Part shown: in pieces, positions 8,401 to 28,400 of the stretch
Position numbering within the stretch: the stretch's first letter is position 1
Layout: the number at the start of each line of letters is the position of its first letter
UHGV virus genome: UHGV-0113711
Direction: 5' to 3' (one strand)
Source: a virus
Length of the DNA stretch: 34,173 nucleotides
The notes under the pieces: model-generated
What the model was told of the DNA's origin: nothing
Seen by the model: the letters and a program-made list of their open reading frames with translations, nothing else
Database searches by the model: none
Translations under genes and position numbers: made by a program

Positions 8401-8587
8401 ATATACTCCTTTGTAAAACTATATTTATAGCCTCCATAACATTACAAAAGAATGATATTTTTAATTTGAGGTGTCGTCCAAATATGATTATATTCCAAAG
8501 TGACATTAATGAATATTGTCCCGACTACGGAATAGGGATTAAAATAAACCGTAACCGGGAAATATATTTATTATCCATTTTTAACCA

Positions 8588-10357
8588 TCATGGATAGTAC
8601 AAATTTTTAAAGTGATTATTAATATCAACCATAGCATCAAGAATTGGTTTGAACAATGAAAAATCTATAGTCTGTCTATTTTCTCTGATAATATTGTTGG
8701 CAAACCTGTCTTTTCCAAAAGTAGTAGTGCTATCATGATTATTACTTTTATCAAAGGATTTACCGTTAATTGTCTTTGTCAGAACTTCATCTTTGAAAAA
8801 GTCTTCCATGCACGATTGTTTATCACCAGCCAATAGTGGAGTTAACAATACGTAGAGGTTATTCTCTAAATGTAAAAATTTATGTTTTCTTACGTCCTCT
8901 GATTTTCTAGGCAGGTGAGAATATTCTTTGATTATATTATTAATAAAATCAGATGGCCCAGTGTCATTATCCAAAACAATTATTACTGGATTTTTAGGCG
9001 GTTGTCTTTCAAATTTCTTGCATTGTTCTCTATGCCTTCTAAAGAATCTTACATAGTCAGCAGCCCCACCGTAGAGGTCTAAAAAATATTCCTTTTTTGC
9101 GTTTGTTTTGAATAACGTAATATTTAAAATTCTATTCTTTGTTCTATCGTCAACTCTAACCAGAGCAGGATAACTTAAATACAAAGAATCAATTGCACAT
9201 TTCAAATAAATTGGATCTGTTTTACCTTCTGTCAAAACTGTAGGCTTTATATTCCCATAAAAATACTTATAATGAAGAAAGTTACTGAATGCTGTCTCTC
9301 TTGAATTCAATTTGAGAGTAAAATTAATTCCAGTTTTCTTTAGCACATATTTTTCTGGGAGTGTATGTTTTTTAGCGTTAATGTTATTATACTTATCAAG
9401 CATATCAATATAAACGAAGCGGCCTTCAAGTTCATTTAGAGTACCTTTTCGCGGTTTTCCACTAATATCCAAAAGGGTAAAATCCCCTTCTTTATAAAGT
9501 GCATGCGCCATAGCTCTGGTTTTTTTAATATAATCTTTATTGACATTTATTTTTTTGTTTACGGTTAAACCTGTTACTTCCTGCCTTGATGTATGCCGCA
9601 ATATTCTGGTCTTATTATTATTAATTTTAAATCCAGCTTTTTCAATTTCATTAACTAACAATGGTCCTAACTCGTTAGAATTCTCATTTATAACAATTGA
9701 GTCAGGAAACTGATTTTTGTTAGTTGAGAATGTTATATCATCTGCATATCGACTATAACTGCATCCATTAGAAAGTGCCAACTTTGACAATCTAATATCT
9801 AAAATATTACATATAAGATTGCTTATTACAGGAGAGCAAGGACTTCCTTGCGGAAGTTTTCCATCATAGCAAGCTATCTGCGCAATTATAGTTGCTATTG
9901 ATGGGTGCAAATTAAAATATTGATTCGCGATAAAATAACCACGGACCCTACCGAAATTAAATGTAGGGAAAAAATCCTCAAGATCAATATTTAAAACATT
10001 GGTTTTATTTCTATGTCTTTCTGCATTTGTTATTATTGTTTTATTTTTCTCAAATCCATGAGATAAGCTAGGGGTGATATTATTTGTTTTCCATATTTCG
10101 CTCTGACAAACATACAATAAATCTGATAAACGCCTTTGTATGTCTTTTAGTTTTTCAGTAGGCGCAAATATCTCTCTGTCACCTCCAGACTTCTTTTTTA
10201 TAATAAATCTTTCATATTGATGCTCAGGTCGTATTCTGTACAGGACATTAGTAAGAAAAGAAACTTTAATTTGAAGTAAGCGTGCAAACTCAAATTTGGT
10301 CTTGCATGACTTGAGTCTTTCTAAGTAGGAGGGAGTGAACATAATAGTAAATTCCAT
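8588..10357 (-). CDS. Retron-type reverse transcriptase with C-terminal Toprim domain (Ec67-family architecture)
   Basis: Reverse-transcriptase motifs are KKSGGDREIFAPT (box 1/2), LNIDLEDFFPTFNF (box A), LPQGSPCSPVISNLICNILD (box B'), YSRYADDITFST (box C, YADD) and SRQEVTGLTVN. The C-terminal ~250 aa carry Toprim signatures TVLTEGKTDPIYLK (conserved Glu) and PVIIVLDNDTGPSD (DxD). Size (584-589 aa) and block order match my recollection of the Ec67 reverse transcriptase (586 aa). The true start may be the Met at 10342. Confidence 0.9.
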   Translation of the reverse strand: MEFTIMFTPSYLERLKSCKTKFEFARLLQIKVSFLTNVLYRIRPEHQYERFIIKKKSGGDREIFAPTEKLKDIQRRLSDLLYVCQSEIWKTNNITPSLSHGFEKNKTIITNAERHRNKTNVLNIDLEDFFPTFNFGRVRGYFIANQYFNLHPSIATIIAQIACYDGKLPQGSPCSPVISNLICNILDIRLSKLALSNGCSYSRYADDITFSTNKNQFPDSIVINENSNELGPLLVNEIEKAGFKINNNKTRILRHTSRQEVTGLTVNKKINVNKDYIKKTRAMAHALYKEGDFTLLDISGKPRKGTLNELEGRFVYIDMLDKYNNINAKKHTLPEKYVLKKTGINFTLKLNSRETAFSNFLHYKYFYGNIKPTVLTEGKTDPIYLKCAIDSLYLSYPALVRVDDRTKNRILNITLFKTNAKKEYFLDLYGGAADYVRFFRRHREQCKKFERQPPKNPVIIVLDNDTGPSDFINNIIKEYSHLPRKSEDVRKHKFLHLENNLYVLLTPLLAGDKQSCMEDFFKDEVLTKTINGKSFDKSNNHDSTTTFGKDRFANNIIRENRQTIDFSLFKPILDAMVDINNHFKNLYYP

Positions 10358-10373
10358 TATTAATTATGTTATT

Positions 10374-10502
10374 GCACATGCAGGCACTCTTACGCATTTC
10401 AAAGTGACGCCCAAGAAGATCCGACGTCCGTCAGAGGCGAATACTGCCGACCTTTTAATCACTGATTGCGATACCACAACCAACAAATCTACCTGCATGT
10501 GC
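10374..10502 (-). ncRNA. Candidate retron msr-msd non-coding RNA bounded by a1/a2 inverted repeats (approximate)
   Basis: Perfect 11-bp inverted repeat: gcacatgcagg (10374..10384) and cctgcatgtgc (10492..10502), spanning 129 bp immediately 5' of the reverse-transcriptase start on the minus strand. This is the position and scale expected for retron a2/a1. The internal msr/msd boundary and branch G are not determined. Confidence 0.5.
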
Positions 10503-10787
10503 CTTGCTAATTTATCATAGTTAACAATCAAAACAAGCACTTTTGAAAATGGCTGTATCTTATTGATTAACTAATCATGGTCAAAGCCGAACATTCCTCG
10601 TGAAGATTGTTAGAATTTGAGATCTTTACGAGCACTTAACAGACTGTCAGATTCAGTCATGGAGCAAGTTGAATGCAATGTTATCATGTATCACTTTTTC
10701 TTTTTCGTCGTTAAGATGGTTCATAAAACTTACCATTAAGTCGATTGATAACTAGTAATTACATCTGTAGGTTCTCTTGATGATTTG

Positions 10788-11528
10788 TCAGAGGGCATTT
10801 GAGCTAAATAAAGTTGATTCGACGAGTTCAATTGCTTCATCTTCGATAGTTGATTTGTCCATTGTTTTGGTCGGCTCAGAAATATCAATTTTCACAATTA
10901 CAATCTCGTCATCAAAAGATAGTTTTTCACCCCTTCTTTCTTTACGTAAAACGCTGTTCTCTTTGCTGAGTTCAGCGTTTTTCCTTTCTAACTCTGCGAC
11001 TCTTTTCATCAAATCTTCCATTTTGGAATTCACAACATCTAGTCTCTGCTCAGTCGGAAATTCAATACTTTCGATGATTTCAATAAATTCACCAGTATAC
11101 ATCTGAACAAACTGCTCGGTGTCTTTGATCTTCTGCATTCTTAGATCTGAACAGAAAGCTTTCCACGAGTTCTTTTTACCGTTAATTTCACAAGCAACGA
11201 TAACAGCATTATCGGTTGTATAAGCAACGATTGCAGGCAGATTATTAACTTCGGTCGTACCGATTTCGAAGCTATGCATATTTTTTACAGTCACAGCATT
11301 TTCAATCTTCTGTAACATCTTAGCTCGAACATTACGATGAATATCTATAGCTTTAACAAGAGCTTTCAGGCTGTTTTTGTTATTGGTCATTCTATTAACT
11401 TTGATAATATTTCTGTTCAGGCTTGCTTTAACTGTTCTGTCTAGATTTTCGAAGACTGCAAATTTGAAATTCAATTTATTTGCCTTTATTGATTGGTTGA
11501 GTTCTGATATTACGTTTTTTGCAAGCAT
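10788..11528 (-). CDS. Hypothetical protein (246 aa) with coiled-coil C-terminus
   Basis: Long ORF on the same strand as the retron and upstream of it. C-terminal KMEDLMKRVAELERKNAELSKENSVLRKERR is coiled-coil-like. The start may be a later Met because the 5' end overlaps the upstream small ORF. Confidence 0.6.
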   Translation of the reverse strand: MLAKNVISELNQSIKANKLNFKFAVFENLDRTVKASLNRNIIKVNRMTNNKNSLKALVKAIDIHRNVRAKMLQKIENAVTVKNMHSFEIGTTEVNNLPAIVAYTTDNAVIVACEINGKKNSWKAFCSDLRMQKIKDTEQFVQMYTGEFIEIIESIEFPTEQRLDVVNSKMEDLMKRVAELERKNAELSKENSVLRKERRGEKLSFDDEIVIVKIDISEPTKTMDKSTIEDEAIELVESTLFSSNAL

Positions 11529-11634
11529 TATACATCGTTGCTTTATTCATTTGTTTAGATTCTGCAATTTGCTGAAATGTCTCACCAGAGTCTAAGCGAG
11601 ATTCAATTTCGAATTTGTTAGGTATAAATTTCAT
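11476..11634 (-). CDS. Small putative HTH DNA-binding protein (52 aa)
   Basis: Internal Met of track ORF 11476..11670. ETFQQIAESKQMNKATMYNACKK resembles a helix-turn-helix. Weak ribosome-binding site; overlaps the downstream 246-aa ORF by ~50 bp in another frame. Confidence 0.35.
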   Translation of the reverse strand: MKFIPNKFEIESRLDSGETFQQIAESKQMNKATMYNACKKRNIRTQPINKGK

Positions 11635-11665
11635 GGGGTTGCCTTTTTTATTGAATTGAAAAATA

Positions 11666-11683
11666 AGCACTCCGAAGAGTGCT
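11666..11683. terminator. Hairpin agcactc-cgaa-gagtgct flanked by A/T runs
   Basis: 7-bp stem with a 4-nt loop. The upstream A-run (plus strand) would be a T-run for minus-strand transcripts, so it may insulate the HTH gene from the non-coding region to its right. Confidence 0.35.
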
Positions 11684-12016
11684 TTAAACTTAAGGAATTT
11701 TTAAATGAACTAAGCTAATTGCTTATATCTTATTTTATGACGGATAAAGTCAGTAGTAAACAAACGAGAGAAAATAACGAGGAAGAAGAAACTCTCTGTG
11801 TTCATACTAATATTTATATAGTTCACCGAAAGTGTAAACAAAGTCCGAAAAATAATTTAGTGAAAAGCAGGTGCATTGATGCACATCAAAACGCATCGAT
11901 AACGCATCGATGCGACTCGGAGAAGTGCATGGACCCTAGAAAAAATCGCCCTATAAGAACAATTGGATAAAGATGAACTGGAAGGATATAGAAGCAGTAC
12001 AAAACCTGGAAAACAT

Positions 12017-12159
12017 AGCGAAGCGAGCAGATTGCGCGAAGCGCGGGCGAAGCCCTAATTGATAAACATTAGCGCGAAGCGCGACAGATAACACTATCGA
12101 ACTTGATTACTAGCTACTGATTAGATGTTTCTAGATAAAGATTATTAGCGCTTCGCGCG
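12017..12159. repeat. Cluster of GCGAAGC mini-hairpin motifs (four direct, one inverted) in an otherwise AT-rich non-coding region
   Basis: GCGAAGC at 12017..12023, 12035..12041 (within gcgcgaagcgcg), 12046..12052 (within gggcgaagccc) and 12073..12079 (within gcgcgaagcgcg). The inverted copy gcgcttcgcgcg is at 12148..12159. Confidence 0.6.
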
Positions 12160-12621
12160 TTCGCTACGCTCACAATATTATTTTTCAGATCTGGATAATA
12201 ATGATTACTGGATAACTGCATTATACTGTTCGTCTGACAATCAATAAACATAACGATCGATAATTAATTGAAATAACGTTAATGAGTTCTCCTTCGCTAT
12301 CGCTACGTCGAACGGGCAAGCCCTATCTTTGATGATAGTAATGATTGACTGCTACATCATCCCTCCTCGCTTCTCCCTGCTTCTACTGACCTAATGATAC
12401 TCCAAGTCAATTCCCTGTTATCAAGTTCACCTGATGCTTCCTGCTTCGTTATCGACCTTATTGCTTTTGACTCTACGCTTTCAGCTTCGCAGGAAGTACG
12501 CCCTGCTGTTTGCAGATCGTTCTAAAGAACTGAGTAATCAAGTTCTCAACTATTTGATTCCTTGCGCCCCAAAGATGCCTCCAGTATCTGTGGTTTACAA
12601 TCTACTCATTTGAAATTCAAT

Positions 12622-12648
12622 AAAAAAGGGAGCACTAAGCTCCCTTTT
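12622..12648. terminator. Bidirectional Rho-independent terminator
   Basis: aaaaaa-gggagc-actaa-gctccc-tttt: a 6-bp GC-rich stem (12628..12644) flanked by an A-run and a T-run, immediately 3' of the 59-codon minus-strand gene. Confidence 0.7.
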
Positions 12649-12649
12649 G

Positions 12650-12829
12650 TCATTTCAGACCAAGCACTAATGCTTGTTCAAGTTTTTTCTCAAGCAGAGT
12701 GTTTAATCCACTTTCGAAAAATTCAATCGCTTGAACGTCTGAGTCTGTTTTTAAGCGAACAGCGGCATCGTCAACTGTTAACTCTTCGGTCTTAACATCA
12801 CCGTTTTTATAAACCACATTAGCAATCAT
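12650..12829 (-). CDS. Small acidic protein (59 aa), self-contained transcription unit
   Basis: ATG at 12829 preceded by AAAGGAGA; translation MIANVVYKNGDVKTEELTVDDAAVRLKTDSDVQAIEFFESGLNTLLEKKLEQALVLGLK. Absent from the ORF track (below its apparent length cutoff). Has its own promoter and terminator. Confidence 0.6.
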   Translation of the reverse strand: MIANVVYKNGDVKTEELTVDDAAVRLKTDSDVQAIEFFESGLNTLLEKKLEQALVLGLK

Positions 12830-12850
12830 GCTTTCTCCTTTGTTGCTAAA

Positions 12851-12879
12851 AAATAATAACCGAATGATATCACTTGTTC
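12851..12879 (-). promoter_or_regulatory. Sigma70-like promoter for the 59-codon gene (-35 TTGAAC, 17-bp spacer, -10 TATTAT)
   Basis: Minus-strand reading ttgaac-aagtgatatcattcggt-tattat, ending ~10 nt before the ribosome-binding site. Confidence 0.5.
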
Positions 12880-13067
12880 AATTTTTCTTTCAATCAAATA
12901 AGTATCCGATGAATAGTCGGCTCTCTAAACTAGCAGGTATGAAATAGTTCCTTAATTCTGAACTTCCTCACTTTGCTTCCTATTTAATATTGCAATTTTA
13001 AATCTAGTGTAATTAATTTAGCTACAAACTTGCATTTATTATACATTTAAAAAATCGCCTCCATTCG

Positions 13068-17652: not shown

Positions 17653-19557
17653 ATGCTAAAACTTAAGCGCGATTACACAGTTCAGGGTATTGATTCTGTT
17701 GATGGTGTTTTTGAAATTGCGTTCAGTTCTGAAACTCCTGTTGAAAGACAGATTCAGGATGAATACGGTCAAAACATTACTGTTAATGAAATTCTCGTTC
17801 ATGACGGCTCACATAACGCTGACTTGACCCGAATTAATAACGGTGCTGCTTTGCTGTTTAACCATGATTTTGATAAACACTTGGGAATCGTTATTCCTGA
17901 TTCTGTTCGAATCGATGAAGACAAAATAGGACGAGCAAAAGTCCAATTCAGTCAACACGGTGAATTAGCTAAAGAAATCGGTGCAAAAGTTCAAGAAGGA
18001 ACAATTAGTAAAATCTCTTTCGGATATGACATTAATGAATATCACTTAGAAGGCGACAATCTTATTGTTACGAAATGGGCACCATATGAAATTTCTTTCG
18101 TCACTGTTCCTGCTGACGATAAAGTCGGTTTGGGAAGACTACTAAATACAGATACAACAAACAAACTTAACAAAGGTACTCGAATGAAACGTATTGATGA
18201 AATGACTAAAGATGAACTGGCAGAAATGACTATCGATGAAATTGAAATGCTGTCCGATGAAGATCGTGCAAAGCGTGAAGAAATTCTGGAAGAAGTAGTC
18301 GTTGAAAATGAAAACGCTGGTGATTCTGCTGTTGAAAAAACTGATGACGCTCCTGCTGCTGTTCCTGCTGGTGACGAACTGACAGAAGAAGAACGCGAAG
18401 AAGAAGCGGAAGAAATTCTTGAAATCGCACAACGCTACAAAGTAGCACAGAAAGACGTTGCAAGCGCTATCGCTAAAGGCATGACCGCACGTCAATTCAA
18501 ACGCTCTATTAAACCTAATAAATCTGCAACGGTGATTCGCAACATGACTAAAGATACTAAACAAACTCTGGAAAATAAATTCGACCTTGGCGATGCTGTT
18601 CGCTCTATGATGAATGGTAAAGCTGTTCGCGGTGCTGCTGCTGAATATACTCAAGAAATGTCCCGTAAGCGTCTGATGCGCGGTGCTAACGTTTCTCAAG
18701 GTATCTATATGCCAGTTAGTGCTCTGCAAGGCAAACGCGCTATTAACACTGTATCAACTGTTTCCGCAGTACAAGAAACTGTTCAGCGTTATGATTCATT
18801 CGTTGAAATGCTGTTGAAAGACACTGTTGCTGATAAGCTGGGAGTTAACTTCCTGACTGGTCTGACTACTCCGATTTCTGTTCCTAAGCAGACAAAATCA
18901 AGTGTTGATGCATTCGGTTTCGTTGATGAAAACGGTGAATCTCCAGAAGGCGAAAGCAAATTCGAAAACATTCAGTTTATGCCTAAGACATTTACTGGTG
19001 GTAACCCGATTTCTCGTCAAGCTCTGTTGACTCTGCCTAATCTGGGTGCGTTCATTTCTGACCATATCGTGAATTTCTCACGCGCTAAACTGGAAGGTCT
19101 GATGTTCGGTTCTATTACCGACGCAAAAGCTCCTCAGTCTATCGTTGCTCAGTTAGTAGCAAAACAGATGGGAATGACCTACAAAGAATTCGTTGTTGAA
19201 GCTGCTAAAGCTAAAGGCGACGGCGTAGCAATGGACAAGTTCAAATATTTGATGGCTGCTGCTCTTGAAGGTGATTTGAAAACCACTCTGCGTGACGCTG
19301 GTGTTGCTGGTTATATCATCGACGACCTGAACAAACTGGGCGGACATGATGTTATCGGTTCCGGTCTTGTTAAAGAAGGTCAGGTTATCTCTGGTGACTT
19401 CTCTGCTGTAACCGTAGCTGAGTGGGAAGGTCTTGCTCTTGACCTAGACGACACAACTTACCGTAACAAAGGCGCTATCGTTCCTCGCGTTTGGGCTGAT
19501 ATCGATTGGAAAGTTTGTGCTGATGATCGTCTGTTCCTGCACGAAAAAAAAGCCTAA
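17653..19557 (+). CDS. Prohead protease (HK97/S78-like) - acidic linker - major capsid protein fusion
   Basis: N-terminal ~160 aa carry HK97-type prohead protease features (LLFNHDFDKHLGIV...ISFGYD...YEISFVTVPADDKV). A strongly acidic, coiled-coil-like segment follows (EEEREEEAEEILE). The C-terminal ~350 aa is capsid-like. A strong terminator follows. Confidence 0.7.
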   Translation: MLKLKRDYTVQGIDSVDGVFEIAFSSETPVERQIQDEYGQNITVNEILVHDGSHNADLTRINNGAALLFNHDFDKHLGIVIPDSVRIDEDKIGRAKVQFSQHGELAKEIGAKVQEGTISKISFGYDINEYHLEGDNLIVTKWAPYEISFVTVPADDKVGLGRLLNTDTTNKLNKGTRMKRIDEMTKDELAEMTIDEIEMLSDEDRAKREEILEEVVVENENAGDSAVEKTDDAPAAVPAGDELTEEEREEEAEEILEIAQRYKVAQKDVASAIAKGMTARQFKRSIKPNKSATVIRNMTKDTKQTLENKFDLGDAVRSMMNGKAVRGAAAEYTQEMSRKRLMRGANVSQGIYMPVSALQGKRAINTVSTVSAVQETVQRYDSFVEMLLKDTVADKLGVNFLTGLTTPISVPKQTKSSVDAFGFVDENGESPEGESKFENIQFMPKTFTGGNPISRQALLTLPNLGAFISDHIVNFSRAKLEGLMFGSITDAKAPQSIVAQLVAKQMGMTYKEFVVEAAKAKGDGVAMDKFKYLMAAALEGDLKTTLRDAGVAGYIIDDLNKLGGHDVIGSGLVKEGQVISGDFSAVTVAEWEGLALDLDDTTYRNKGAIVPRVWADIDWKVCADDRLFLHEKKA

Positions 19558-20351: not shown

Positions 20352-21377
20352 ATGACAAACGATATTTTTGTAGGAAATAACGTCAGAGTTTCAGTTAATC
20401 CGCTAATCGTTGAAATCCCAGGATATAACGACCCAGGTTATGTAAGCACTGATAAACTGGCTGCATTCCCTGTTATCGGATTTAGAAAAGAAGTTCAGAC
20501 ACTAGAAGATTACAGAACCGATTTTACAACGAAACTTTCAGGTGACGTAACAATTAATGACACTTCAATAAGCTTATTTGAAGACAGTTCTGACCCAGTT
20601 TATCAGTTGCTTGATGAAGCTCTTATGGAAAAGAAACTCCTTAGATTCAGAAGTCTTTATGTTATCGATGGAGAAACAAAGAAAGATAATGATGCTGGTC
20701 TTTATCATATTTTTAATGCTTATGTAACTAAGAAAGAAACAACAGGCTCCGAAAACTCAGTCGTTACAACAACTTTTAATCTTTCTCCTGATGGTCAGTT
20801 GTTTACAGGTTTTGCTGAATTCTCGGTTCCGTTAAACGTTGGCGATTATGGTATTGGTGCTGGTACAGAAGAAATCGCAGGTGTTAAAGACTTAGGATTA
20901 TTAACTGGTAACAGATGTGTAACAGTCGATGCAACAAACAGCGATAACCCTTATAACTCTGGCACGTCTGCTATGGCTATTCAGCATCCTGATGGTCAAG
21001 GTTGGGAGCTTATTGGTTCGTCAGTCGGTAATCCAAGCATCAGAATCAGAAACAAACAACAAAGCGGTGAAACTGTTACTGAATCTCCGTGGGTCAAAGT
21101 CTATACAGAACTTGAACGTCCAACTCCTGAAGATATTAATGCTTTGCCTATTACTGGTGGAGAACTCAAAGGATCTTTGACTATTCAGGAATATCTGAAC
21201 GTTCGTAAAAAGATTTCTGCGCCACAAGGTGAAATCTTGGCTCTAAATAGTAATGAAATTAACTCAACTTCTGTCAAGGTCAAAGGCAAAGAAGTCTATT
21301 CTCCAAGTAATAAACCAACGCCATTAGAGATTAATTGTGTAGCGTTAGGAGAAACCTTAGACGCAGGAGTATTTTAA
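20352..21377 (+). CDS. Hypothetical virion structural protein (341 aa)
   Basis: Long ORF in the structural block between head genes and the tail fibre; function not assignable by eye. Confidence 0.6.
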   Translation: MTNDIFVGNNVRVSVNPLIVEIPGYNDPGYVSTDKLAAFPVIGFRKEVQTLEDYRTDFTTKLSGDVTINDTSISLFEDSSDPVYQLLDEALMEKKLLRFRSLYVIDGETKKDNDAGLYHIFNAYVTKKETTGSENSVVTTTFNLSPDGQLFTGFAEFSVPLNVGDYGIGAGTEEIAGVKDLGLLTGNRCVTVDATNSDNPYNSGTSAMAIQHPDGQGWELIGSSVGNPSIRIRNKQQSGETVTESPWVKVYTELERPTPEDINALPITGGELKGSLTIQEYLNVRKKISAPQGEILALNSNEINSTSVKVKGKEVYSPSNKPTPLEINCVALGETLDAGVF

Positions 21378-21389
21378 CGGATAAAGAAA

Positions 21390-24300
21390 ATGGCAAATAA
21401 TAAAGTTAAACATTATAGAACAGACGTCGCCGGAAGAAAGCCAGAAGCGAAAAACATGCTTGATGGTGAAATCGCTATTAACTTAGCCGATAAAAAGATT
21501 TTCACTAAATTCGGTGACGCTGTTATTAACATCGGTAATGGTGCTGACGCTGTTGTTGAAGGCGGTCAGACCTTTACTGGTAAAATTAAAGCAAGTGATA
21601 TTGAATCCGATTCTAATCTGACTTTAAAAAATCTTGATAAAAGCGATATTGTTTTTGCTGATGAACACGACAAAGCAAAAGCGCGTATTAGTTCTCCTGC
21701 TCAAGCAGACGCTAAAGGTGAACTTCGTGTTACGGTAGCGAAAGGAAAAGCTACAGGAGAGAGTTCTGACTTTGTGCTTAACGGTAATGGTCAGTTATCT
21801 TTACCTGCTGCTCCTGTTGCTCCTGAAAGCGCTACGCGTAAAGATTACGTTGATTCTGAAATCAGTAAAGTCCAAACAGGCTCAAGTGCTGACCTGACGA
21901 AACTCGAACAGAAAGTTGATGCTAACGACGCTGCTATTAACACTCGCGTTGATAATCTGAATTCAAAAGTTGATCAGAACGACGCTGCTATTAATACGAA
22001 AGTTGATGCGAATAAAGCTGATGCTGACGAAAAGATTAAAGCTGTTAACGACCGTCTGACTGTTGATAATCAGACTCTGACTAATATGATTAACGAAAAA
22101 GTTAGTAAGTCTGGTGATACTATGACAGGCAATTTGACAGTTCCTTCTGTTCATGCTGCTGGTGATGTATACGCTGGAACTTTGAAAGTTACATCTGCTG
22201 GTAATAACGGTGGTGTTCTGAGTATTGAAAACCACGGCAGAACTTCAAAGACTATTCATCAAATTGCATACGCAACGGATACGGATGATCGACTGTTATT
22301 TCGTCGTGATGCTAACGAAGGAACCGACGCATTAGATCTAATGACCATGGCTTGGGGAAAGACAGGCAGAGGAATGTCAATTGATATTTCAGGTCAAGCT
22401 AGAATCACTGATACAGTAACAACTCCTTTAATGTCCGTTGCAAGCAACTTTGCCGTTGGAAATTCACTGGGTTTAAACTCTATCGCTATTGGTGATTCCG
22501 ACACTGGTTTTAAATGGAGACAAGACGGTTGGTTAAACTTCTATTCTAATAACGTTGTAACAGCTTCTATCGCAGGATCTGAAAACTACTTTAATAGAAA
22601 AACTTATTTCCGTTTCAGAAGTGATGATGGCGATTCGAATCTGTTGGCTCCTGAAGGTCAGGCATTAATTCAAATCGATACGACAACAGATGGGAATAAC
22701 GTTGGTGATTCCACGACTTATTTCGGATTAGTTAATGGTGGAAAATACAATCATTATCTGAGAGGTAAAGGCAGAACGTATATTGATACTCATGAAGGTC
22801 TCGGCGTTGCTGGTCCTGCAAGTTTCTATCAGACGATTTTTAACAACAAAGGATACGGAAGTTACGATAGTGAATCATTGCCAACTTGGACAGATGCTGC
22901 GTATCAATCGAATCATTTAAGAAAAGTAAGAGCTAAAAACGGCGGAGCAATTTTTCATGAAGCTGTTGTTGCCGAACACGGTGATTCTAGAGCTAGTCAG
23001 TCTATAAGCTGGTATCACGGTAATGGTCCTGAAAACTTCATCGCATCGATGCAGATTGACGGAACAATTAACGCAACTCGTTTTAATACGTCTGCTGAAT
23101 ATGAAGCGATTAACATCAAAACGAAAAATCGCGAAGCTGCTTATATTAGAGGCACAGACGGTGACAAAACTTCATGGTTATTTGGTCGTTTGAATCCCGG
23201 TGATAACAGGTTAATTGCTCGTTCTACTATCGACCAAGACGGAAGTTCTACTGTTGACTTGGAGATGGATTCAGGAAGCAAATACTTCGGTGTTAATGTT
23301 GGTGGGAATAGAATTGCAAGATTTCATGAAAAAAATATTATTATCGACGGAAGAAAGTGGGCTGCTGACAATAGTCACGCTTGGGCAGACCAATGGAATC
23401 AACTTCCTCCTGTTGCTATAGAATTTGGTGCTGTTCCTTCTGGAAGTGATTATTATCCTGGATATGCATTACAAAGTAGCTCTGTTGGTTTTGGTTATTC
23501 AACTCGATTCGAACTCGGTATGATTCGTGCTCCTGCTGATCAATTCGGTAGAGGTATTCTTCGTGTGGGAACATATGAAGAAGGTGCGTCGAAAACGATG
23601 GCGAATTACGAGTTCAGTATTGACGGAAGATTCGCAGTTCCTGGCAAAATTAATACTCCTTATCTAGAAACTTCTAGAATTACAAGTTTTGCTGTAGGTA
23701 ATACGAATAACGGTCTAGGCGGTAATTCAATTGCCTTCGGTGATCACGATACTGGTATTCGTCAGCAGGTTGACGGTATTCTTGAATTTCATGCTAATGG
23801 ATTTCATTCGATGTCTATCGATTCTGCTCAAGTTTGGTTAAACAGACATTTGAATATTTCTGCTCCTAACCACGGTCGTGGTGTTTATGTCAACGGTAAT
23901 CGAGAAGGTGCCAGCAATTCGATGATTCAAGGTCAAGTCGAAGGATGGGCTGATTGGGGTTCATGGCGTGAACGTCCTGCGGGAATGATTGTTGAAGCTT
24001 CTGCTCGTTCGAAATGCATTAATATCTGGAAACATGTTCACTGGGGCACAGAATATAGTGCTGCAATGGACGTTTATAATCCCGACGGTGCAGGTCCTGA
24101 AGCCCAATTACACGTTGGTGGTGCAAACTATCATTTCAGCGGTAACGGAACAGCAAACGCCATTTCTTGGGTTAGCACTTCTGATAAACGTCTGAAATCA
24201 AATTTTGAAGAAATTGAAAACGCGGTTGATAAAGTCGAGAAACTTACTGGTTACGTATACGATAAGAAATCTGATTTAGTCGAAACTGAATATTCATTCG

Positions 24301-24473
24301 AAGTTCGTGAAGCAGGTATTATTGCTCAAGAACTGAAAGAAGTATTACCAGAAGCTGTTAGTTCTTTCGGACCTGACGAAATTCTTGGTGTTAACTCTGC
24401 TGCTGTAAACGCGTTGCTGGTTAATGCTATCAAGGAATTAAGTGCTCGCGTTAAAGAACTTGAAGCTAAATAA
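21390..24473 (+). CDS. Tail fibre protein (P2 gpH / T4 gp37-like shaft) with C-terminal intramolecular chaperone (peptidase S74-type) domain
   Basis: RKDYVDSEISKV, SKSGDTMTGNLTV and repeated GDSDTGF/GDHDTGI blocks parallel P2 H (TQDYVDDKI, QKNGDTLSGGL, GDNDTGFKQNGDG). The C-terminus ISWVSTSDKRLKSNFEEIENAVDKVEKLTGYVYDKK...AGIIAQELKEVLPEAV matches the self-cleaving chaperone domain found at the end of many phage fibres and endosialidases. Confidence 0.85.
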   Translation: MANNKVKHYRTDVAGRKPEAKNMLDGEIAINLADKKIFTKFGDAVINIGNGADAVVEGGQTFTGKIKASDIESDSNLTLKNLDKSDIVFADEHDKAKARISSPAQADAKGELRVTVAKGKATGESSDFVLNGNGQLSLPAAPVAPESATRKDYVDSEISKVQTGSSADLTKLEQKVDANDAAINTRVDNLNSKVDQNDAAINTKVDANKADADEKIKAVNDRLTVDNQTLTNMINEKVSKSGDTMTGNLTVPSVHAAGDVYAGTLKVTSAGNNGGVLSIENHGRTSKTIHQIAYATDTDDRLLFRRDANEGTDALDLMTMAWGKTGRGMSIDISGQARITDTVTTPLMSVASNFAVGNSLGLNSIAIGDSDTGFKWRQDGWLNFYSNNVVTASIAGSENYFNRKTYFRFRSDDGDSNLLAPEGQALIQIDTTTDGNNVGDSTTYFGLVNGGKYNHYLRGKGRTYIDTHEGLGVAGPASFYQTIFNNKGYGSYDSESLPTWTDAAYQSNHLRKVRAKNGGAIFHEAVVAEHGDSRASQSISWYHGNGPENFIASMQIDGTINATRFNTSAEYEAINIKTKNREAAYIRGTDGDKTSWLFGRLNPGDNRLIARSTIDQDGSSTVDLEMDSGSKYFGVNVGGNRIARFHEKNIIIDGRKWAADNSHAWADQWNQLPPVAIEFGAVPSGSDYYPGYALQSSSVGFGYSTRFELGMIRAPADQFGRGILRVGTYEEGASKTMANYEFSIDGRFAVPGKINTPYLETSRITSFAVGNTNNGLGGNSIAFGDHDTGIRQQVDGILEFHANGFHSMSIDSAQVWLNRHLNISAPNHGRGVYVNGNREGASNSMIQGQVEGWADWGSWRERPAGMIVEASARSKCINIWKHVHWGTEYSAAMDVYNPDGAGPEAQLHVGGANYHFSGNGTANAISWVSTSDKRLKSNFEEIENAVDKVEKLTGYVYDKKSDLVETEYSFEVREAGIIAQELKEVLPEAVSSFGPDEILGVNSAAVNALLVNAIKELSARVKELEAK

Positions 24474-24476
24474 CAA

Positions 24477-24497
24477 AAAGGGGAGAAATCCCCTTTG
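24477..24497 (+). terminator. Putative Rho-independent terminator after the tail-fibre gene
   Basis: aaagggg-agaaat-ccccttt hairpin; short T-tract. Confidence 0.45.
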
Positions 24498-24534
24498 CTA
24501 AATAAACTATATTAACTCAAATAGGAAATTAAAA

Positions 24535-25011
24535 ATGGCAGACAAATTTGATATTTTTGCTGGCTCTTACGTCAGTGTGTTCTATAACTCAGAAATTGCA
24601 AACACCGATCTGAATTCAGAAAAGTTTGTTGAAATTCCTGAAACTGGTGCATTCCCTTCTACGGGTATTGAACGCGAAGTTATTACAGCTCCTAACTTCT
24701 CTCACAAATACTCCCGTAAACTGGTTGGTCGTGGCTCTGTTCCTGATATCGACTTGACCGTTAACTATATTCCAGAAAGCGTTCATGATGTTCTGATTAA
24801 GCTTGCGGAAGATGGTAAACGTGGTCAGTTTAAAATCGTTTATTGGATTGATGCTACTAAAAAACTGGGTGTTGCAAAAGTTTATAACGGCTTCTTGTCA
24901 AGCGCTGTTCATAATGGCGGTGAATCAGAAGTTCAAGGTCTGACAATGACACTGAGTGTTGATGGTGGTCCTGTTGTTTCTGGTGTTGTTGATTTGACAT
25001 CAAGTGATTAA
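24535..25011 (+). CDS. Putative major tail (tube) protein (158 aa)
   Basis: Size, beta-rich composition and the strong terminator immediately after it suggest an abundant structural protein. QFKIVYWIDATKKLGVAKVYNGFLSS...LTMTLSVDG is reminiscent of tail-tube proteins. Assignment is tentative. Confidence 0.4.
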   Translation: MADKFDIFAGSYVSVFYNSEIANTDLNSEKFVEIPETGAFPSTGIEREVITAPNFSHKYSRKLVGRGSVPDIDLTVNYIPESVHDVLIKLAEDGKRGQFKIVYWIDATKKLGVAKVYNGFLSSAVHNGGESEVQGLTMTLSVDGGPVVSGVVDLTSSD

Positions 25012-25017
25012 TTAAAA

Positions 25018-25041
25018 AGACTCCGCAAGGGGTCTTTTTTT
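25018..25041 (+). terminator. Rho-independent terminator
   Basis: agactcc-gcaa-ggggtct stem-loop followed by ttttttt. Confidence 0.75.
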
Positions 25042-25068
25042 GGCTCTAAATAAAGTCAGAGGTGAAAC

Positions 25069-25485
25069 ATGTTTAAATTTCAGGCTGACTTATCAAAATT
25101 ACTTAATCGCTATATCAATCAGCAACACGTTTTCGGTCAAAACGACTGTAATATCCTTGTTGCTGAATATATCGACCTTGTTTGTGCTACTGAATACACA
25201 GACAAATTAAAAGACAAATACACGAGTATTCCTGAAGGACTGAAGATCTGTAAAGACCTAACAGGATTTAATAACGTTCTCGAAGCGTGTGAAACGCATC
25301 TTGAGAAATCAGAAACTATAGAAACAGGCTCGGTTATCTTAATTAAGAAAAAGCATAAAAACCGAATCTATTACGTTGCGTCTATCGTTTTTAATAATAG
25401 AGCATTAGTTGAACATGAAAATAAATATCAACTGATAAACGTCAACGATTTTAATTTTGAATTAATTTTTAACAGGAGAAAATAA
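25069..25485 (+). CDS. Hypothetical protein (138 aa), possible papain-like (NlpC/P60-type) fold
   Basis: NDCNILVAEY and later His residues loosely resemble the Cys/His motifs of NlpC/P60 tail-assembly proteins. Weak. Confidence 0.5.
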   Translation: MFKFQADLSKLLNRYINQQHVFGQNDCNILVAEYIDLVCATEYTDKLKDKYTSIPEGLKICKDLTGFNNVLEACETHLEKSETIETGSVILIKKKHKNRIYYVASIVFNNRALVEHENKYQLINVNDFNFELIFNRRK

Positions 25486-28400
25486 TGGCTATTGTAGCTA
25501 TTGGTGCAATTATCGCAGGTGCTTCCGCGGCTGCTGCTGCTTACGCTGCGGGTGCTGCTCTTGCTTTGGCAATTGGTATTGGTGTCGCTGTTGCTGCTGT
25601 TTCTGCTTTGATGTCAACTCAGATGGCGCAGAACGTTCCCCGATTTAACAGCACAGACACAGCAACGACATTAGGAACAACGTCAGATCCATCAAGTGTT
25701 ATTCCTATTATCTATGGTGAACAGCGTACAGGTACGATTAACGTTTGGAAAGCTGTTGGCGTTGATACGACATATTTGGTTCAGATCTTTGCAATCTGTG
25801 AAGGTGAAGTTGATAGCTTCAAAAACCTTTATATGGATAATCAGAAAATCTTACTTGATGGCGTTTATAAAGACGGTGTTCTTCCGAAAGGTTCAATCGC
25901 TGCTGAATATCAGCAATATGTTGAAGTTGAATTCTCAACTGGTAAGCCATACGGTCACGTTTTTACTCTTGCTCAGAAATATCTAGGAAATTCAGATGCT
26001 GGCTGGCCTGATTCTGCTACTGGTAATAACATCGCTGCTTGTTGTGTTGTTATGCGCAAACGTAACTCAGACCTTCAAAACCAAGCTGATATCCTGCAAC
26101 CTAACAGTCAAGTATCTGTTGACGTTAGAGGACGTTTGATTACAGATCTGAACACAGGAGAACGCGTTTCCTCGAACAACGGTCCGAGTCAGATTGTTGA
26201 TTATCTAACAAATGATAGATACGGTCTTGGAATTCAGATTGATAAAATCGACCTTGAAAGTTTTAAAGAAGCTGCTCGATATGCAAAACTGAACAGTTTA
26301 TTTTCTGATGGTGCAACTGACCCGAACGGTTCATTCAAAGAAAACTTAACTCAGCTTGCAGGTGCATTTAACGGTATTATCACAGAGACTTTCGGTAAAG
26401 TAACATGCAGAATCGATGGACCTGATGTTGTTCAATATGACTTCAACGAAGATAATATTAACGCTGGTACTGTTAGCTTAAACGATGGCGGTTCTGAGAA
26501 TTATTACAATACTCTGAACGTGAAATATCAAGATCCGTCGATTGACTATTCTGACCAAGTTCTGCGTTATCCGTCTGACGTAACAAATGATGGAACAATC
26601 GCGAAAGATAAACGTATTATCGCTAAAGATATCAGTTATAGATTCGTGAAATCAAAATCTCAGTTGGATAAAATTGCTTCAATCGAACGTAACAAATCTC
26701 TGTTAAAGCAAGTTATTAGTTTTTCAACTGCCGATGCTTATACCGCACAGGTCTGGGATGTTATCAGAGTTAATTTCTCTGAACTGGAACTTGTGAATTC
26801 ATTATGGCGTATTACTAATATCGATCGTTCGATGAATAAAGGTGCTGCTGGTATCGTTACTATTACTGCTTCTGAATATATCGAAGAAGTTTATACCAAT
26901 CTTGACTACGCGAAAGACCCTGATAACACAGGAAGCAACATTCCTAATAAATCTGTTCTGATTGCTCCTAAGAATCTGACAGTTAAAGCAGTTGCTGAAA
27001 CAGCTTTAGGAAGAACTCTGAAAGTTCAATGGACGTCTGAACCTGATTATAATCGCGCAGGTTATTATATTCAGTATAGTCTTGCTGGTAAGAACTCTTG
27101 GATTCAAGCAGGTTTCACATCAGGCGATTATTTCTTGATTATGAGTCTTGACCCTAATCAGAAATTTGATATTCGTGTTTGTGCTTCTGGTGTTGTGTAT
27201 CGTTCAGATTGGGTTTATGTCAATAACGTTAACCCTGAGGTTATGTATAACTTACCAGTCGTTACAGGACTGCACCTAGTGAACGCAGTTGAAAATCAAT
27301 ACACCACTAACAAGACTCAATTTGAATTCGCCTGGGACGACCAGAGCGCACAGAAATTCTATGTTGACGACACGTTACAGACATTCGGTGAAGTTTTTCA
27401 ATATTACGAAATCAAAATTGAAGGTCAGCGTCCTGTAATTTACAAGACTAAAGACTTAGGTTTTGTATATGACTTTAATATGAACTTGGGTAATGGTCTG
27501 AGTCGTGAATTGAAAGTTTCTGTTACTGCATACGGTCACGCTGGTATGAAGTCAGATCCTGCTGTTATTACTGTTAAGAACAATCAAGCTCCTGCTATTC
27601 AAGGTTTCACAGCTTCGAATGGTCCTGGAATGCTGATGTGCTCTTGGAATGACCCACGCGATAATAAGCCTGAAGTTCCTGACTTCAAAGGCACAATCGT
27701 TCATATTGCGAAAGACCAGAGTTTTAATGAAATTGTTCACGTTTATTCAAGTTCAAGTCCGTTCTTAGATAATTTTCCATTAGAAGATGGTCAATTCTAT
27801 GTTCGTTCAGCTTGGTATGACGTATTCGGACAAGACCAGATTACTTGGTCAGAATCGAAGTTTATCGATATGAAATGGGATATTCCGTGGACTGACGATA
27901 TGAAAGAACAGTTAAACGATTTGCTTGATTTGGATAAACGTGTTGATGGTGCTATCGATGAAGCATTAGACCTCGCTAACAAATACACTGATACGAAAGT
28001 TACAGCATCCGAGCAAAAAGTTACTACTGAATTAAATCAGACTATCACGACGAAAAACACCGAACTTCATACTCAGATTACTAATGAAACTAATGGCGCT
28101 ATCAATCAGGCTATCAGTATTCAAGAATCTAACTTTGATGGAAAACTTAACTCGGCTATTACGAAAGTTGAAAAAACTCAAGCTGATGATAGACAAGCAA
28201 CCGCAAGTTCAATTAATCAATTGAAAGCTGAAACAAACACAGCTATTGCAACAGTTAGTCAAAAATCAAAAGCAAGCGTTGACGACTTAACAGGAACGAT
28301 TAATAGCAAATGGGCAGTTCAGACTAATGCCGACGGTGTTGTTACTGGTATCAGTATGCTGGCTAATAAGAATCCTGACGGTTCAAAACAGTCTAGTATT

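What the first reader, a model, noticed from the sequence alone, without database searches (positions are those of the whole stretch)
25485..25620. J-like tip protein begins with a 45-residue Ala/Gly-rich hydrophobic segment
The first 45 residues (MAIVAIGAIIAGASAAAAAYAAGAALALAIGIGVAVAAVSALMST) are almost entirely A/G/I/V/L, unlike the lambda J N-terminus as I recall it. Such glycine-zipper-like segments are typical of membrane-inserting regions of tape-measure or ejection proteins, suggesting a domain fusion or a membrane-interaction role for this tip protein.
Basis: seen in the sequence. Interest (0 to 1): 0.35.

Follow-up and report, generated by a model that had tools for sequence, protein, structure and literature searches.

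The report
Membrane-type plug fused to tail tip
The greasy 45-residue start of this prophage's tail-tip protein is real and translated, and it matches the plug and proposed membrane-penetration helices that phage lambda carries on a separate protein (gpI), so it is an ordinary, already described kind of feature in a fused form.

Summary
Confirmed. ORF 25485..29174 (1229 aa) starts MAIVAIGAIIAGASAAAAAYAAGAALALAIGIGVAVAAVSALMST. 38 of 45 residues are A/G/I/V/L, and there is no charged residue before R53.

The segment is translated. ATG 25485 is the only possible start: there is an in-frame stop four codons upstream, an AGGAG six nt upstream, and a 1-nt overlap with the preceding gene. dN/dS over codons 2-44 is 0.07-0.18. 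All close homologues keep the segment.

Residues about 5-97 match the C-terminal half of lambda gpI (E 9e-6): two hydrophobic helices H1/H2, the lumen plug, and the VLPVLYGEMRVG strands. The chain then runs into a hub that matches T5 pb3, lambda gpJ and the RcGTA megatron. So the protein is an unsplit "I(C-terminus)-J", equivalent to the N-terminal "iris/penetration domain" of the RcGTA and roseophage R4C megatron.

The feature is family-wide: 117 of 148 full-length cluster representatives begin with a one- or two-helix hydrophobic segment.

The most likely role is to plug the tail-tip lumen under the tape-measure C-terminus, then to be released and inserted into the outer membrane. The plug role is seen in homologues. 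Membrane insertion is inferred everywhere. This is a new member of a known kind, of low interest.

The parts
25474..25478 (+). Shine-Dalgarno-like AGGAG, 6 nt before the start codon
   Evidence: Read directly. The same AACAGGAGAAAATAATGGC context is found in E. coli prophage copies L005 and L007.
25485..25619 (+). N-terminal hydrophobic Ala/Gly-rich segment, aa 1-45. Probably a helix-turn-helix hairpin: H1 about aa 2-21, turn around Y20-A-A-G23, H2 about aa 24-45. Counterpart of lambda gpI H1/H2 and of the megatron iris/penetration domain.
   Evidence: Composition and hydropathy. Conserved in homologues, with G7, G12 and G33 invariant among 11 sequences. dN/dS 0.07-0.18. The profile alignment to gpI extends through it. 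The helix boundaries are my estimate: the AF2 model gives pLDDT about 24 here.
25620..25697 (+). Polar linker, aa 46-71 (TQMAQNVPRFNSTDTATTLGTTSDPSS). Aligns with the lambda gpI 'plug' (gpI 159-175) and the following loop.
   Evidence: hhalign 47-97 to gpI 158-214, probability 93%, E 2.8e-7. hmmsearch. The plug is defined in PMC11101478.
25698..25760 (+). Conserved strand motif VIPIIYGEQRTGTINVWKAVG (aa 72-92). Equals gpI VLPVLYGEMRVGSRVV and T5 pb3 FIPVVYGVQKIPGIPIF (aa 263-).
   Evidence: G78 is invariant in all alignments.
25698..26924 (+). Baseplate-hub (HDII-HDIV type) region, aa about 72-480.
   Evidence: HMM hits to T5/DT57C pb3, E about 1e-19 to 1e-20. hhalign to lambda gpJ 269-518, probability 90%. 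Foldseek: pb3 E 1e-17, RcGTA 6tba_8A 1.6e-8, lambda gpJ 2e-8.
28257..28784 (+). Phage_Tail_Tip (PF09327) domain of the central fibre, aa 925-1100.
   Evidence: Pfam E 1.9e-22, 80 bits against a cut-off of 22.
25485..29174 (+). Whole gene: fused gpI(C-terminal half)-J-like / megatron-like tail tip protein, 1229 aa.
   Evidence: Identical to cluster P0037 ('phage tail tip fiber protein', Citrobacter/E. coli).
25069..25485 (+). DUF6950 gene, translationally coupled to the tip gene. It occupies the position of RcGTA g14 / lambda K.
   Evidence: Pfam PF22262, E 2.2e-10. The G.NDCN motif is shared with the gene directly upstream of J-like genes in IMG/VR loci. Its function was not established.
3945..4592 (-). 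Separate hub protein with the GTA g13-type attachment domain. It supplies the hub domain that the tip protein lacks.
   Evidence: PF09931, 30.1 bits against a cut-off of 26. Similar to the hub-like ORF next to DUF6950-like and J-like genes in L014.
4592..5293 (-). Distal tail protein (Dit)-like gene.
   Evidence: phrog_1302 distal tail protein, E 4.4e-22.
31774..34173 (+). Tape-measure protein, the presumed lumen partner of the N-terminal hairpin. It has only one weak hydrophobic segment (aa 66-84).
   Evidence: phrog_13674, E 2.9e-73. Hydropathy. The partnership is inferred from lambda gpI-gpH contacts (PMC10721106, PMC12617516).

Best explanation
The first 45 residues are the plug/penetration module of a split baseplate-hub system. 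In lambda this module is the C-terminal half of gpI. In the RcGTA and R4C megatron it is the N-terminal 'iris/penetration domain'. Here it is fused in frame to the J-like hub.

Proposed sequence of events:
1. Three copies, one per subunit of the trimeric tip, fold as weakly hydrophobic helical hairpins inside the tip lumen. They pack against one another and against the C-terminus of the tape-measure protein.
2. The following polar stretch (aa about 46-70) plugs the channel, and strands 72-92 are woven into the hub.
3. Receptor binding opens the hub, and the hairpins drop out toward the outer membrane.
4. The hairpins insert into the outer membrane. This anchors the open tube and lines or seeds the outer-membrane opening through which the tape-measure protein and DNA leave.

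What is shown here: the segment is translated and under purifying selection; it is homologous to gpI-C, followed by a pb3/J/megatron-type hub; the feature is family-wide.

What is known from homologues: the lumen location, the plugging role, the contact with the tape-measure C-terminus, and the disappearance of the helices on opening.

What is inferred: that all of this holds in this phage, and the membrane insertion itself.
For: Translation:
- ATG 25485 is the only available start, with an SD and translational coupling.
- dN/dS is 0.074, 0.175 and 0.123 over codons 2-44 against L005, L007 and DCP80.
- The segment is kept in homologues at 45-87% identity.

Homology:
- A profile of the N-terminal 147 columns hits lambda gpI 118-214, E 9e-6, then T5 pb3 263-315.
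- hhalign to gpI 158-214: probability 93%, E 2.8e-7.
- The hub region matches pb3 and gpJ.
- By fold the hub matches pb3, Chi, JBD30, RcGTA 6tba_8A, lambda J and T1.

Split-hub context:
- A separate hub protein of GTA g13 type (PF09931) is encoded in the same prophage.
- The order Dit-hub-DUF6950-like-J is seen in relatives.

Generality:
- 117/148 full-length representatives of 50%-identity clusters have a hydrophobic span in their first 100 aa, starting at residues 1-9 in 108 of the 117.
- 58 of these have a one-helix-length span and 59 a 32-79 aa span.
- In a control region (aa 301-400), only 1/147 has such a span.

Physical chemistry:
- H2 (aa 25-43) has a summed Hessa-scale dG of about -0.8 kcal/mol and H1 about +0.6. 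This marginal, Ala/Gly-rich character suits a segment that must be soluble in the virion and insertable later.

Literature:
- gpI H1/H2 are predicted transmembrane helices. They are resolved in the closed tip and absent from the open LamB-bound tip (PMC11101478).
- Megatron helix alpha-1 forms the iris and is proposed as a pore-lining helix (PMC7296036, PMC10276861).
Against: - Membrane insertion has not been shown experimentally for gpI, for the megatron or for this protein.
- Linares et al. (PMC10038345) state that a pore-lining megatron helix cannot be a general feature of siphophages. T5 uses a beta-hairpin at the same position plus TMP hydrophobic segments.
- The part of the gpI alignment that covers the hydrophobic helices is compositionally biased. 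hhalign keeps only aa 47-97.
- No direct sequence match to the RcGTA megatron was obtained. That link rests on fold and on published descriptions.
- Some relatives (L008/L009 type) lack the segment entirely, so it is not indispensable to the fold.
Confidence: 0.7

Rival explanations
1. Plug and assembly role only. The hydrophobic helices exist to dock the tape-measure C-terminus and close the tip lumen during assembly and storage. After opening they are simply displaced or disordered and never enter a membrane.
For: Only the closed-state location and the contact with gpH are actually observed in lambda (PMC10721106, PMC12617516). In the open state the helices are merely unresolved (PMC11101478). 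H1 is only marginally hydrophobic. T5 achieves anchoring with a beta-hairpin instead (PMC10038345).
Against: A 45-52-residue run with no charge, conserved as one or two transmembrane-length spans in 117/148 clusters, is more than a coiled-coil docking surface needs. In the open lambda complex, the residues that follow the helices point at the membrane (PMC11101478). The TMP of this phage lacks a strong pair of hydrophobic segments that could do the job instead.
Confidence: 0.22
2. Export or membrane-anchor signal used in the producing cell: a Sec signal peptide, a lipoprotein signal or an inner-membrane anchor for tail assembly.
For: An N-terminal hydrophobic stretch superficially resembles a signal anchor.
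Against: There is no positively charged n-region, since no charge occurs before R53. The length, about 48 residues, is roughly twice that of a signal h-region. There is no lipobox cysteine and no cysteine at all in aa 1-100. The homologous gpI helices are found inside the virion tip, not cleaved off (PMC11101478, PMC10721106).
Confidence: 0.03
3. Annotation artefact: the true start is Met43 or Met47 and the Ala/Gly-rich stretch is untranslated leader.
For: Two in-frame Met codons lie at the end of the stretch.
Against: There is no SD before Met43 or Met47, but a strong SD and coupling at Met1. dN/dS is 0.07-0.18, with 14-27 synonymous changes in 43 codons. The segment is conserved at the protein level to 45% overall identity, and in shorter form in Vibrio phages. 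Met43 and Met47 themselves are not conserved.
Confidence: 0.01
4. Functionless low-complexity extension, such as alanine-codon repeat slippage, tolerated at a flexible terminus.
For: There are runs of GCT/GCG codons, and AF2 gives no confident structure.
Against: Specific positions are invariant (G7, A8, I10, A18, G33, A35, A38 in 11 sequences). The segment is under purifying selection. It occurs across very distant relatives with different sequences but the same length classes.
Confidence: 0.02

Closest known systems
Lambda gpI ('tail tip assembly protein I' / insertion protein), C-terminal half: helices H1 and H2, plug 159-175, beta strands to residue 223 (PDB 8IYK, 8K35, 8XCG, 9E7M)
   Same: It has two consecutive uncharged Gly/Ala-rich helices, then a polar plug, then the (V/I)(L/I)P(V/I)(L/I)YGExR(V/T)G strand. 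Sequence similarity is detectable. The gene sits directly before the J-type hub.
   Different: Here the module is the N-terminus of the J-like chain and not a separate 223-aa protein. The ubiquitin-like N-terminal domain of gpI (PF06805, gpI 14-97) is absent. The hydrophobic run is about 48 aa, against about 58 in gpI. The lambda I/J boundary falls inside a domain that is continuous here.
[quoted passage not shown]
   Same: It is at the extreme N-terminus of the large hub-plus-fibre protein, is about 45 residues long, and is hydrophobic and predicted to be a transmembrane helix. The hub is split into a separate g13-type hub protein (PF09931, present here) plus the large protein. A small gene sits between the hub and the large protein. 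The fold of the hub region matches 6tba_8A.
   Different: No direct sequence match to the megatron was found. In RcGTA only helix alpha-1 (7-16) is ordered, and the domain contains a disordered polar stretch. Here the whole 1-45 is uniformly apolar. The C-terminal part here is lambda-J-like (PF09327), not GTA-like. The hub and Dit genes lie 20 kb away on the other strand.
T5 baseplate hub protein pb3: plug domain and beta-hairpin 'legs' (230-KKKLFGL-236)
   Same: The element that closes the tube and then contacts the outer membrane lies immediately N-terminal to the conserved PVVYG strand (pb3 263-268, equal to aa 72-78 here). The hub that follows is homologous.
   Different: T5 uses a refolding beta-hairpin with a basic collar, not apolar helices. 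pb3 carries hub domain I in the same chain, about 190 extra N-terminal residues. In T5 the transmembrane-helix pair is on the tape-measure protein pb2.

Membership tests
Lambda gpI C-terminal module (H1-H2-plug-strands) | Two consecutive hydrophobic, predicted-transmembrane helices directly N-terminal to the plug | tested here: met
   Uncharged aa 1-52. Kyte-Doolittle 19-residue mean >= 1.6 over aa 1-48, with two maxima (centres about 10 and about 34). Conserved small-residue turn near G23.
Lambda gpI C-terminal module (H1-H2-plug-strands) | Sequence similarity of the plug and the beta strands (…PRIQTTD…VLPVLYGEMRVG…) | tested here: met
   hmmsearch, gpI 118-214, E 9e-6. hhalign probability 93%, E 2.8e-7.
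Lambda gpI (whole protein, Pfam Lambda_tail_I PF06805) | N-terminal ubiquitin-like Lambda_tail_I domain | tested here: not met
   The protein begins with the helices. There is no PF06805 hit on the protein or on its first 120 aa, whereas gpI hits it at 1.1e-28. So it is not a gpI orthologue as a whole; only the C-terminal module is shared.
Lambda gpI (whole protein) | Separate polypeptide encoded between K and J | tested here: not met
   A single ORF, 25485..29174. The upstream gene is DUF6950.
Lambda gpI C-terminal module | Trimer located in the tip lumen under the tape-measure C-terminal coiled coil | not testable with these tools
   This needs a virion structure or a multimer prediction. 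The monomer AF2 model has pLDDT about 24 for aa 1-71.
RcGTA-type megatron with iris/penetration domain | A hydrophobic domain of about 45 residues at the extreme N-terminus of the large hub/fibre protein | tested here: met
   The domain is defined in PMC7296036 and PMC10276861.
RcGTA-type megatron with iris/penetration domain | Hub split into a separate g13-type hub protein plus the large protein | tested here: met
   The tip protein aligns to T5 pb3 only from pb3 residue about 263. A PF09931 hub protein is at 3945..4592(-).
RcGTA-type megatron with iris/penetration domain | Structural similarity of the hub region to the megatron | tested here: inconclusive
   Foldseek 6tba_8A, E 1.6e-8, TM-score 0.35-0.38. 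The model has mean pLDDT 55, and T5 pb3 matches better. No sequence-level hit to the megatron.
RcGTA-type megatron with iris/penetration domain | Gene order Dit-hub-peptidase-megatron | tested here: inconclusive
   DUF6950-J are adjacent, and Dit-hub are adjacent but 20 kb away on the other strand. Relatives L010-L018 have the full order. Peptidase activity or fold of DUF6950 was not shown.
Lambda-type central tail fibre J | Phage_Tail_Tip (PF09327) and Phage-tail_3 (PF13550) domains | tested here: met
   PF09327, 80 bits against a cut-off of 22. PF13550 reaches only 19.8 against a cut-off of 23. hhalign to gpJ 269-518, probability 90%. phrog_31, E 5.6e-61.
T5 pb3-type single-chain baseplate hub | Hub domain I and a beta-hairpin plug in the same chain | tested here: not met
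   About 190 N-terminal residues of pb3 have no counterpart. Helices replace the KKKLFGL hairpin.
Sec/lipoprotein signal peptide | Basic n-region, h-region of 7-15 residues, cleavage site or lipobox | tested here: not met
   No charge before R53, an apolar run of about 48 residues, and no Cys in the first 100 aa. No dedicated predictor was available.

The most novel reading that the evidence does not exclude
The fused hairpin may be the sole outer-membrane channel former of this phage. Three hairpins would make a six-helix pore, because the tape-measure protein here has no pair of transmembrane-length segments. More broadly, the one- or two-helix N-terminus found in about 79% of this J-like/megatron family may be the general outer-membrane penetration device of Gram-negative siphophages. 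On this view lambda's split gpI and T5's beta-hairpin plus pb2 helices would be derived variants.
Probability: 0.25. Interest if true: 0.55.

Novelty: new member of a known kind. Interest (0 to 1): 0.25.

Why it matters
How siphophage tails breach the outer membrane is still unresolved. The hydrophobic helices of lambda gpI and of the GTA megatron are the current candidates, but insertion has never been shown.

This prophage adds an E. coli example in which the candidate element is covalently part of the tip protein. It has no ubiquitin-like gpI domain, and its tape measure is poor in hydrophobic segments. That could make a cleaner genetic system: one gene, N-terminal deletions and point mutants.

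The survey here also shows at sequence level that gpI-C and the N-termini of a large J-like/megatron family are the same module, in one-helix and two-helix versions. That is useful for annotation, since these N-termini are otherwise likely to be mislabelled as signal peptides or membrane anchors. None of this changes current models.

Tried and rejected
- Downstream start (Met43/47): rejected.
- Signal peptide or lipoprotein: rejected on composition.
- Pfam and NCBIfam on the N-terminal 120 aa: nothing meaningful.
- Third homologue search with a profile of distant relatives: one hit only. The AF2 alignment therefore stayed shallow (11 sequences). The model is poor (mean pLDDT 55; aa 1-71 about 24) and says nothing about the hairpin. 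It was used only for a fold search of the hub core.
- Direct sequence link to the RcGTA/R4C megatron: not obtained. I could not retrieve those sequences.
- PDB sequence searches for DUF6950 and the 158-aa protein: no hits. DUF6950 against lambda K by BLASTP: nothing.
- Search for a separate upstream 'gpI-like' ORF in relatives that lack the hydrophobic N-terminus: the first scan found nothing. The second scan found loci, but L008/L009 have no such ORF and no room for one. That lineage seems simply to lack the segment in this gene neighbourhood.
- Idea that a conserved aromatic residue at the end of helix 1 (Y20 here, Phe17 in RcGTA) forms the iris: frequent in the one-helix class (…AIYAAS…) but inconsistent in the two-helix class, and absent in DCP80. 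Not adopted.
- Plasmid or phage-plasmid origin: rejected. There was no plasmid match, and the element is chromosomal in E. coli.
Full report
**Observation**

- Of the first 45 residues, 38 are A/G/I/V/L. The rest are S, M, Y and T.
- The first charged residue is R53. The 52-residue charge-free run is more than twice the next longest in the protein.
- Aa 1-48 is the only stretch with a Kyte-Doolittle 19-residue mean >= 1.6.
- Given the composition of the rest of the protein (36% AGILV), 38/45 has a binomial probability of about 4e-11.
- 45 codons end at 25619, one base before the stated end.

**Is it translated?**

- An in-frame TAA lies four codons upstream (25470-25472), so ATG 25485 is the first possible start.
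- AGGAG sits six nt upstream, and the ATG overlaps the stop of the preceding gene (TAATG). There is no SD before Met43 or Met47.
- PGAP uses the same start in E. coli prophage copies.
- Over codons 2-44, the window against three homologues shows 14-27 synonymous but only 4.5-19 non-synonymous differences. dN/dS is 0.074, 0.175 and 0.123.
- Every homologue recovered at 45-87% identity keeps the segment (E. coli, Klebsiella, Citrobacter, Salmonella, phage DCP80). G7, A8, I10, A18, G33, A35 and A38 are invariant.

**What the protein is**

- Pfam finds Phage_Tail_Tip at 925-1100 and a sub-threshold Phage-tail_3. PHROGs gives 'central tail fiber J'.
- The N-terminal 480 aa match the baseplate hub proteins of T5/DT57C by sequence (E about 1e-19 to 1e-20) and lambda gpJ 269-518 by profile comparison (probability 90%).
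- An AF2 model of aa 1-490 is weak overall (mean pLDDT 55; aa 72-310 at 70-90; aa 1-71 at about 24).
- Its fold search nevertheless returns a coherent list: T5/DT57C pb3 (E 1e-17), Chi, JBD30, RcGTA 6tba_8A (1.6e-8), lambda gpJ (2e-8) and T1.
- The alignment to pb3 starts only at pb3 residue about 263, which corresponds to aa 71 here. So hub domain I is not in this chain.
- A separate hub protein with the GTA g13-type attachment domain (PF09931, above the gathering cut-off) is encoded at 3945..4592(-), next to a Dit-like gene.
- This is the split 'hub + megatron' arrangement described for RcGTA (PMC7296036; Linares et al., PMC10038345).

**What the N-terminus is**

- A profile of the first about 147 alignment columns finds lambda gpI in the PDB: residues 118-214 against query 5-97, E 9e-6. 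T5 pb3 263-315 follows in the list.
- hhalign gives 93% probability (E 2.8e-7) for aa 47-97 against gpI 158-214.
- The gpI sequence shows the same layout. A 58-residue uncharged Gly/Ala-rich run (…GGVFQIVLGAAAIAGSFFTAGATLAAWGAAIGAGGMTGILFSLGASMVLGGVAQMLA) is followed by PKARTPRIQTTDNG… and VLPVLYGEMRVGSRVV.
- Here the corresponding stretches are …VSALMSTQMAQNVPRFNSTDTA… and VIPIIYGEQRTGTINVW.
- After this point the window protein continues (LVQIFAICEGEVD…) in register with pb3, whereas lambda starts a new polypeptide, gpJ.
- The protein is thus an unsplit 'gpI C-terminal half + J'. It lacks the ubiquitin-like PF06805 domain of gpI.

**What is known about that module**

[quoted passage not shown] It is stitched into gpJ by beta-sheet augmentation. 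Its resolved N-terminal part is noted as highly hydrophobic and possibly membrane-interacting. gpL + gpI + gpJ-N are equated with T5 pb3 (PMC10721106).
- Ge and Wang describe helices H1 and H2 (TMHMM-predicted transmembrane) and a plug (159-175). In the LamB-nanodisc open state, only residues from 167 on are visible and they point at the membrane. The authors propose that H1/H2 insert into the outer membrane (PMC11101478). The Ur-lambda study concurs (PMC12617516).
- In RcGTA, the megatron's 'iris/penetration domain' is residues 1-46. Helix alpha-1 of three subunits closes the channel and is proposed as a pore-lining helix (PMC7296036). Roseophage R4C is the same (PMC10276861).
- In T5, the element at the equivalent sequence position is the plug that refolds into beta-hairpin legs (233-LFGL-236), immediately before the PVVYG strand (PMC10038345).

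**How general it is**

- A profile search of 1.84 billion cluster representatives found 3,211 relatives.
- Of the best 150, 148 are full length. Of these, 117 (79%) have a hydrophobic span in the first 100 residues, starting at residues 1-9 in 108 of the 117.
- 58 have a span of one-helix length (19-30 aa). 59 have spans of 32-79 aa (median about 45), like the window.
- Only 1 of 147 has such a span at aa 301-400.
- Vibrio phages henriette and V6Aob carry the one-helix form.
- In IMG/VR relatives the gene order is Dit, hub, DUF6950-like, J-like, and the J-like gene usually starts with the hydrophobic segment. One lineage (L008/L009) lacks it.

**Mechanism, and what is inferred**

I commit to the following.
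- Three N-terminal hairpins lie in the tip lumen, packed together and against the tape-measure C-terminus.
- Aa about 46-70 form the plug, and aa 72-92 are woven into the hub.
- On receptor-triggered opening the hairpins are released and enter the outer membrane. They anchor the tube and line or seed the exit pore.
- The marginal hydrophobicity suits a segment that must be soluble first and insertable later. The summed Hessa-scale dG is about -0.8 kcal/mol for aa 25-43 and about +0.6 for aa 1-19.
- This phage's tape measure has only one weak hydrophobic segment, which leaves the hairpin as the best candidate for the outer-membrane step.

The location and the plugging role are transferred from homologues. 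Insertion is unproven in any system. The main rival, with probability about 0.2, is a plug/assembly role only.

**Verdict**

- The feature belongs to a kind already described in lambda, RcGTA, R4C and, in beta-hairpin form, T5. It is a new member in a fused arrangement, in an E. coli prophage integrated next to ybiT.
- Interest is low. The modest added value is the sequence-level link between gpI-C and the N-termini of a large J-like/megatron family, and a possibly convenient one-gene system for testing insertion.

Noticed in passing
window 1-34173; host ybiT at about 1-1481; serine recombinase 1515..3020: The window is an E. coli chromosomal prophage, 99.9% identical to NZ_CP107720 and NZ_CP146665 over window 1-13000. 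It is integrated between ybiT and, as seen in the related copy L005, ldtB/ybiR. It has a large serine integrase. Only 7 of 5,426 complete E. coli genomes carry it.
   Followed up: partly
window 8588..10357 (-) and 6326..7222 (+): The prophage carries likely defence cargo. One gene is a reverse transcriptase that RefSeq annotates as a retron Ec67-family RT/endonuclease. The other is a protein with a CAP12/Pycsar-type TIR domain (PF10137, E 4.8e-38).
   Followed up: no
window 3945..5293 (-), 20352..25485 (+), 31774..34173 (+): The tail genes are scrambled compared with relatives. Dit and hub lie on the minus strand beside the integrase, 20 kb from DUF6950 and the tip gene. The tape measure is downstream of the tip gene, separated from it by endonuclease VII and six small genes. 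A 1027-aa side fibre with a Peptidase_S74 chaperone sits between two tube-like genes (341 aa and 158 aa). IMG/VR relatives keep the order Dit-hub-DUF6950-like-J.
   Followed up: partly
window 25069..25485 (+): The DUF6950 protein shares a G.NDCN motif with the gene directly upstream of J-like genes in many loci. It occupies the slot of the RcGTA g14 peptidase / lambda K. No similarity to K or to any PDB chain was detected, so a peptidase role is only a guess.
   Followed up: partly
L008 2450-2560 and L009 (IMG/VR contigs): These J-like relatives begin 'MSLEKENKIILPIVYG', with the reading frame opening only 17 codons upstream. They have no hydrophobic N-terminus, and no separate hydrophobic ORF lies nearby. 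The plug/penetration module is therefore dispensable or supplied from elsewhere in that lineage.
   Followed up: partly
window 29220..29504 (+): A 94-aa protein lies just downstream of the tip gene. It has an N-terminal transmembrane-like helix (MVDIALIISILGALGGFLAWVYAEI) and a coiled coil (weak DUF7310 hit; phrog_1009, function unknown).
   Followed up: no
L001 (PQ671644.1, Escherichia phage DCP80): The record is labelled Straboviridae/Gaprivervirus and carries T4-type motA and ndd genes. Yet it contains this siphovirus-type tip gene (44% identical) and an unannotated DUF6950-like ORF at L001 11464-11877. It may be a chimeric assembly or carry a wrong taxonomy.
   Followed up: no
proteins P0001, P0004, P0003, P0005-P0009: Many database copies of this gene are truncated or end in frameshifted tails: 339, 430, 491 and 720 aa instead of about 1230-1390. 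These are assembly errors or decaying prophage copies. L005 also has an IS3 insertion in the head module.
   Followed up: no
window 17653..19557 (+): The head protein appears to be a prohead protease-major capsid fusion. It matches phrog_617 (major head protein) over the full length and phrog_80 (protease) at aa 64-156. RefSeq names it either 'HK97 family prohead protease' or 'major capsid protein' in different copies.
   Followed up: no
representatives P0151-P0260 (one-helix class), window aa 20: Many one-helix N-termini end in a conserved small-(I/V/L)-Tyr-small motif (…AIYAAS/N…). The window has Y20 at the presumed end of helix 1, and RcGTA's iris is formed around Phe17. The pattern is inconsistent in the two-helix class.
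   Followed up: partly
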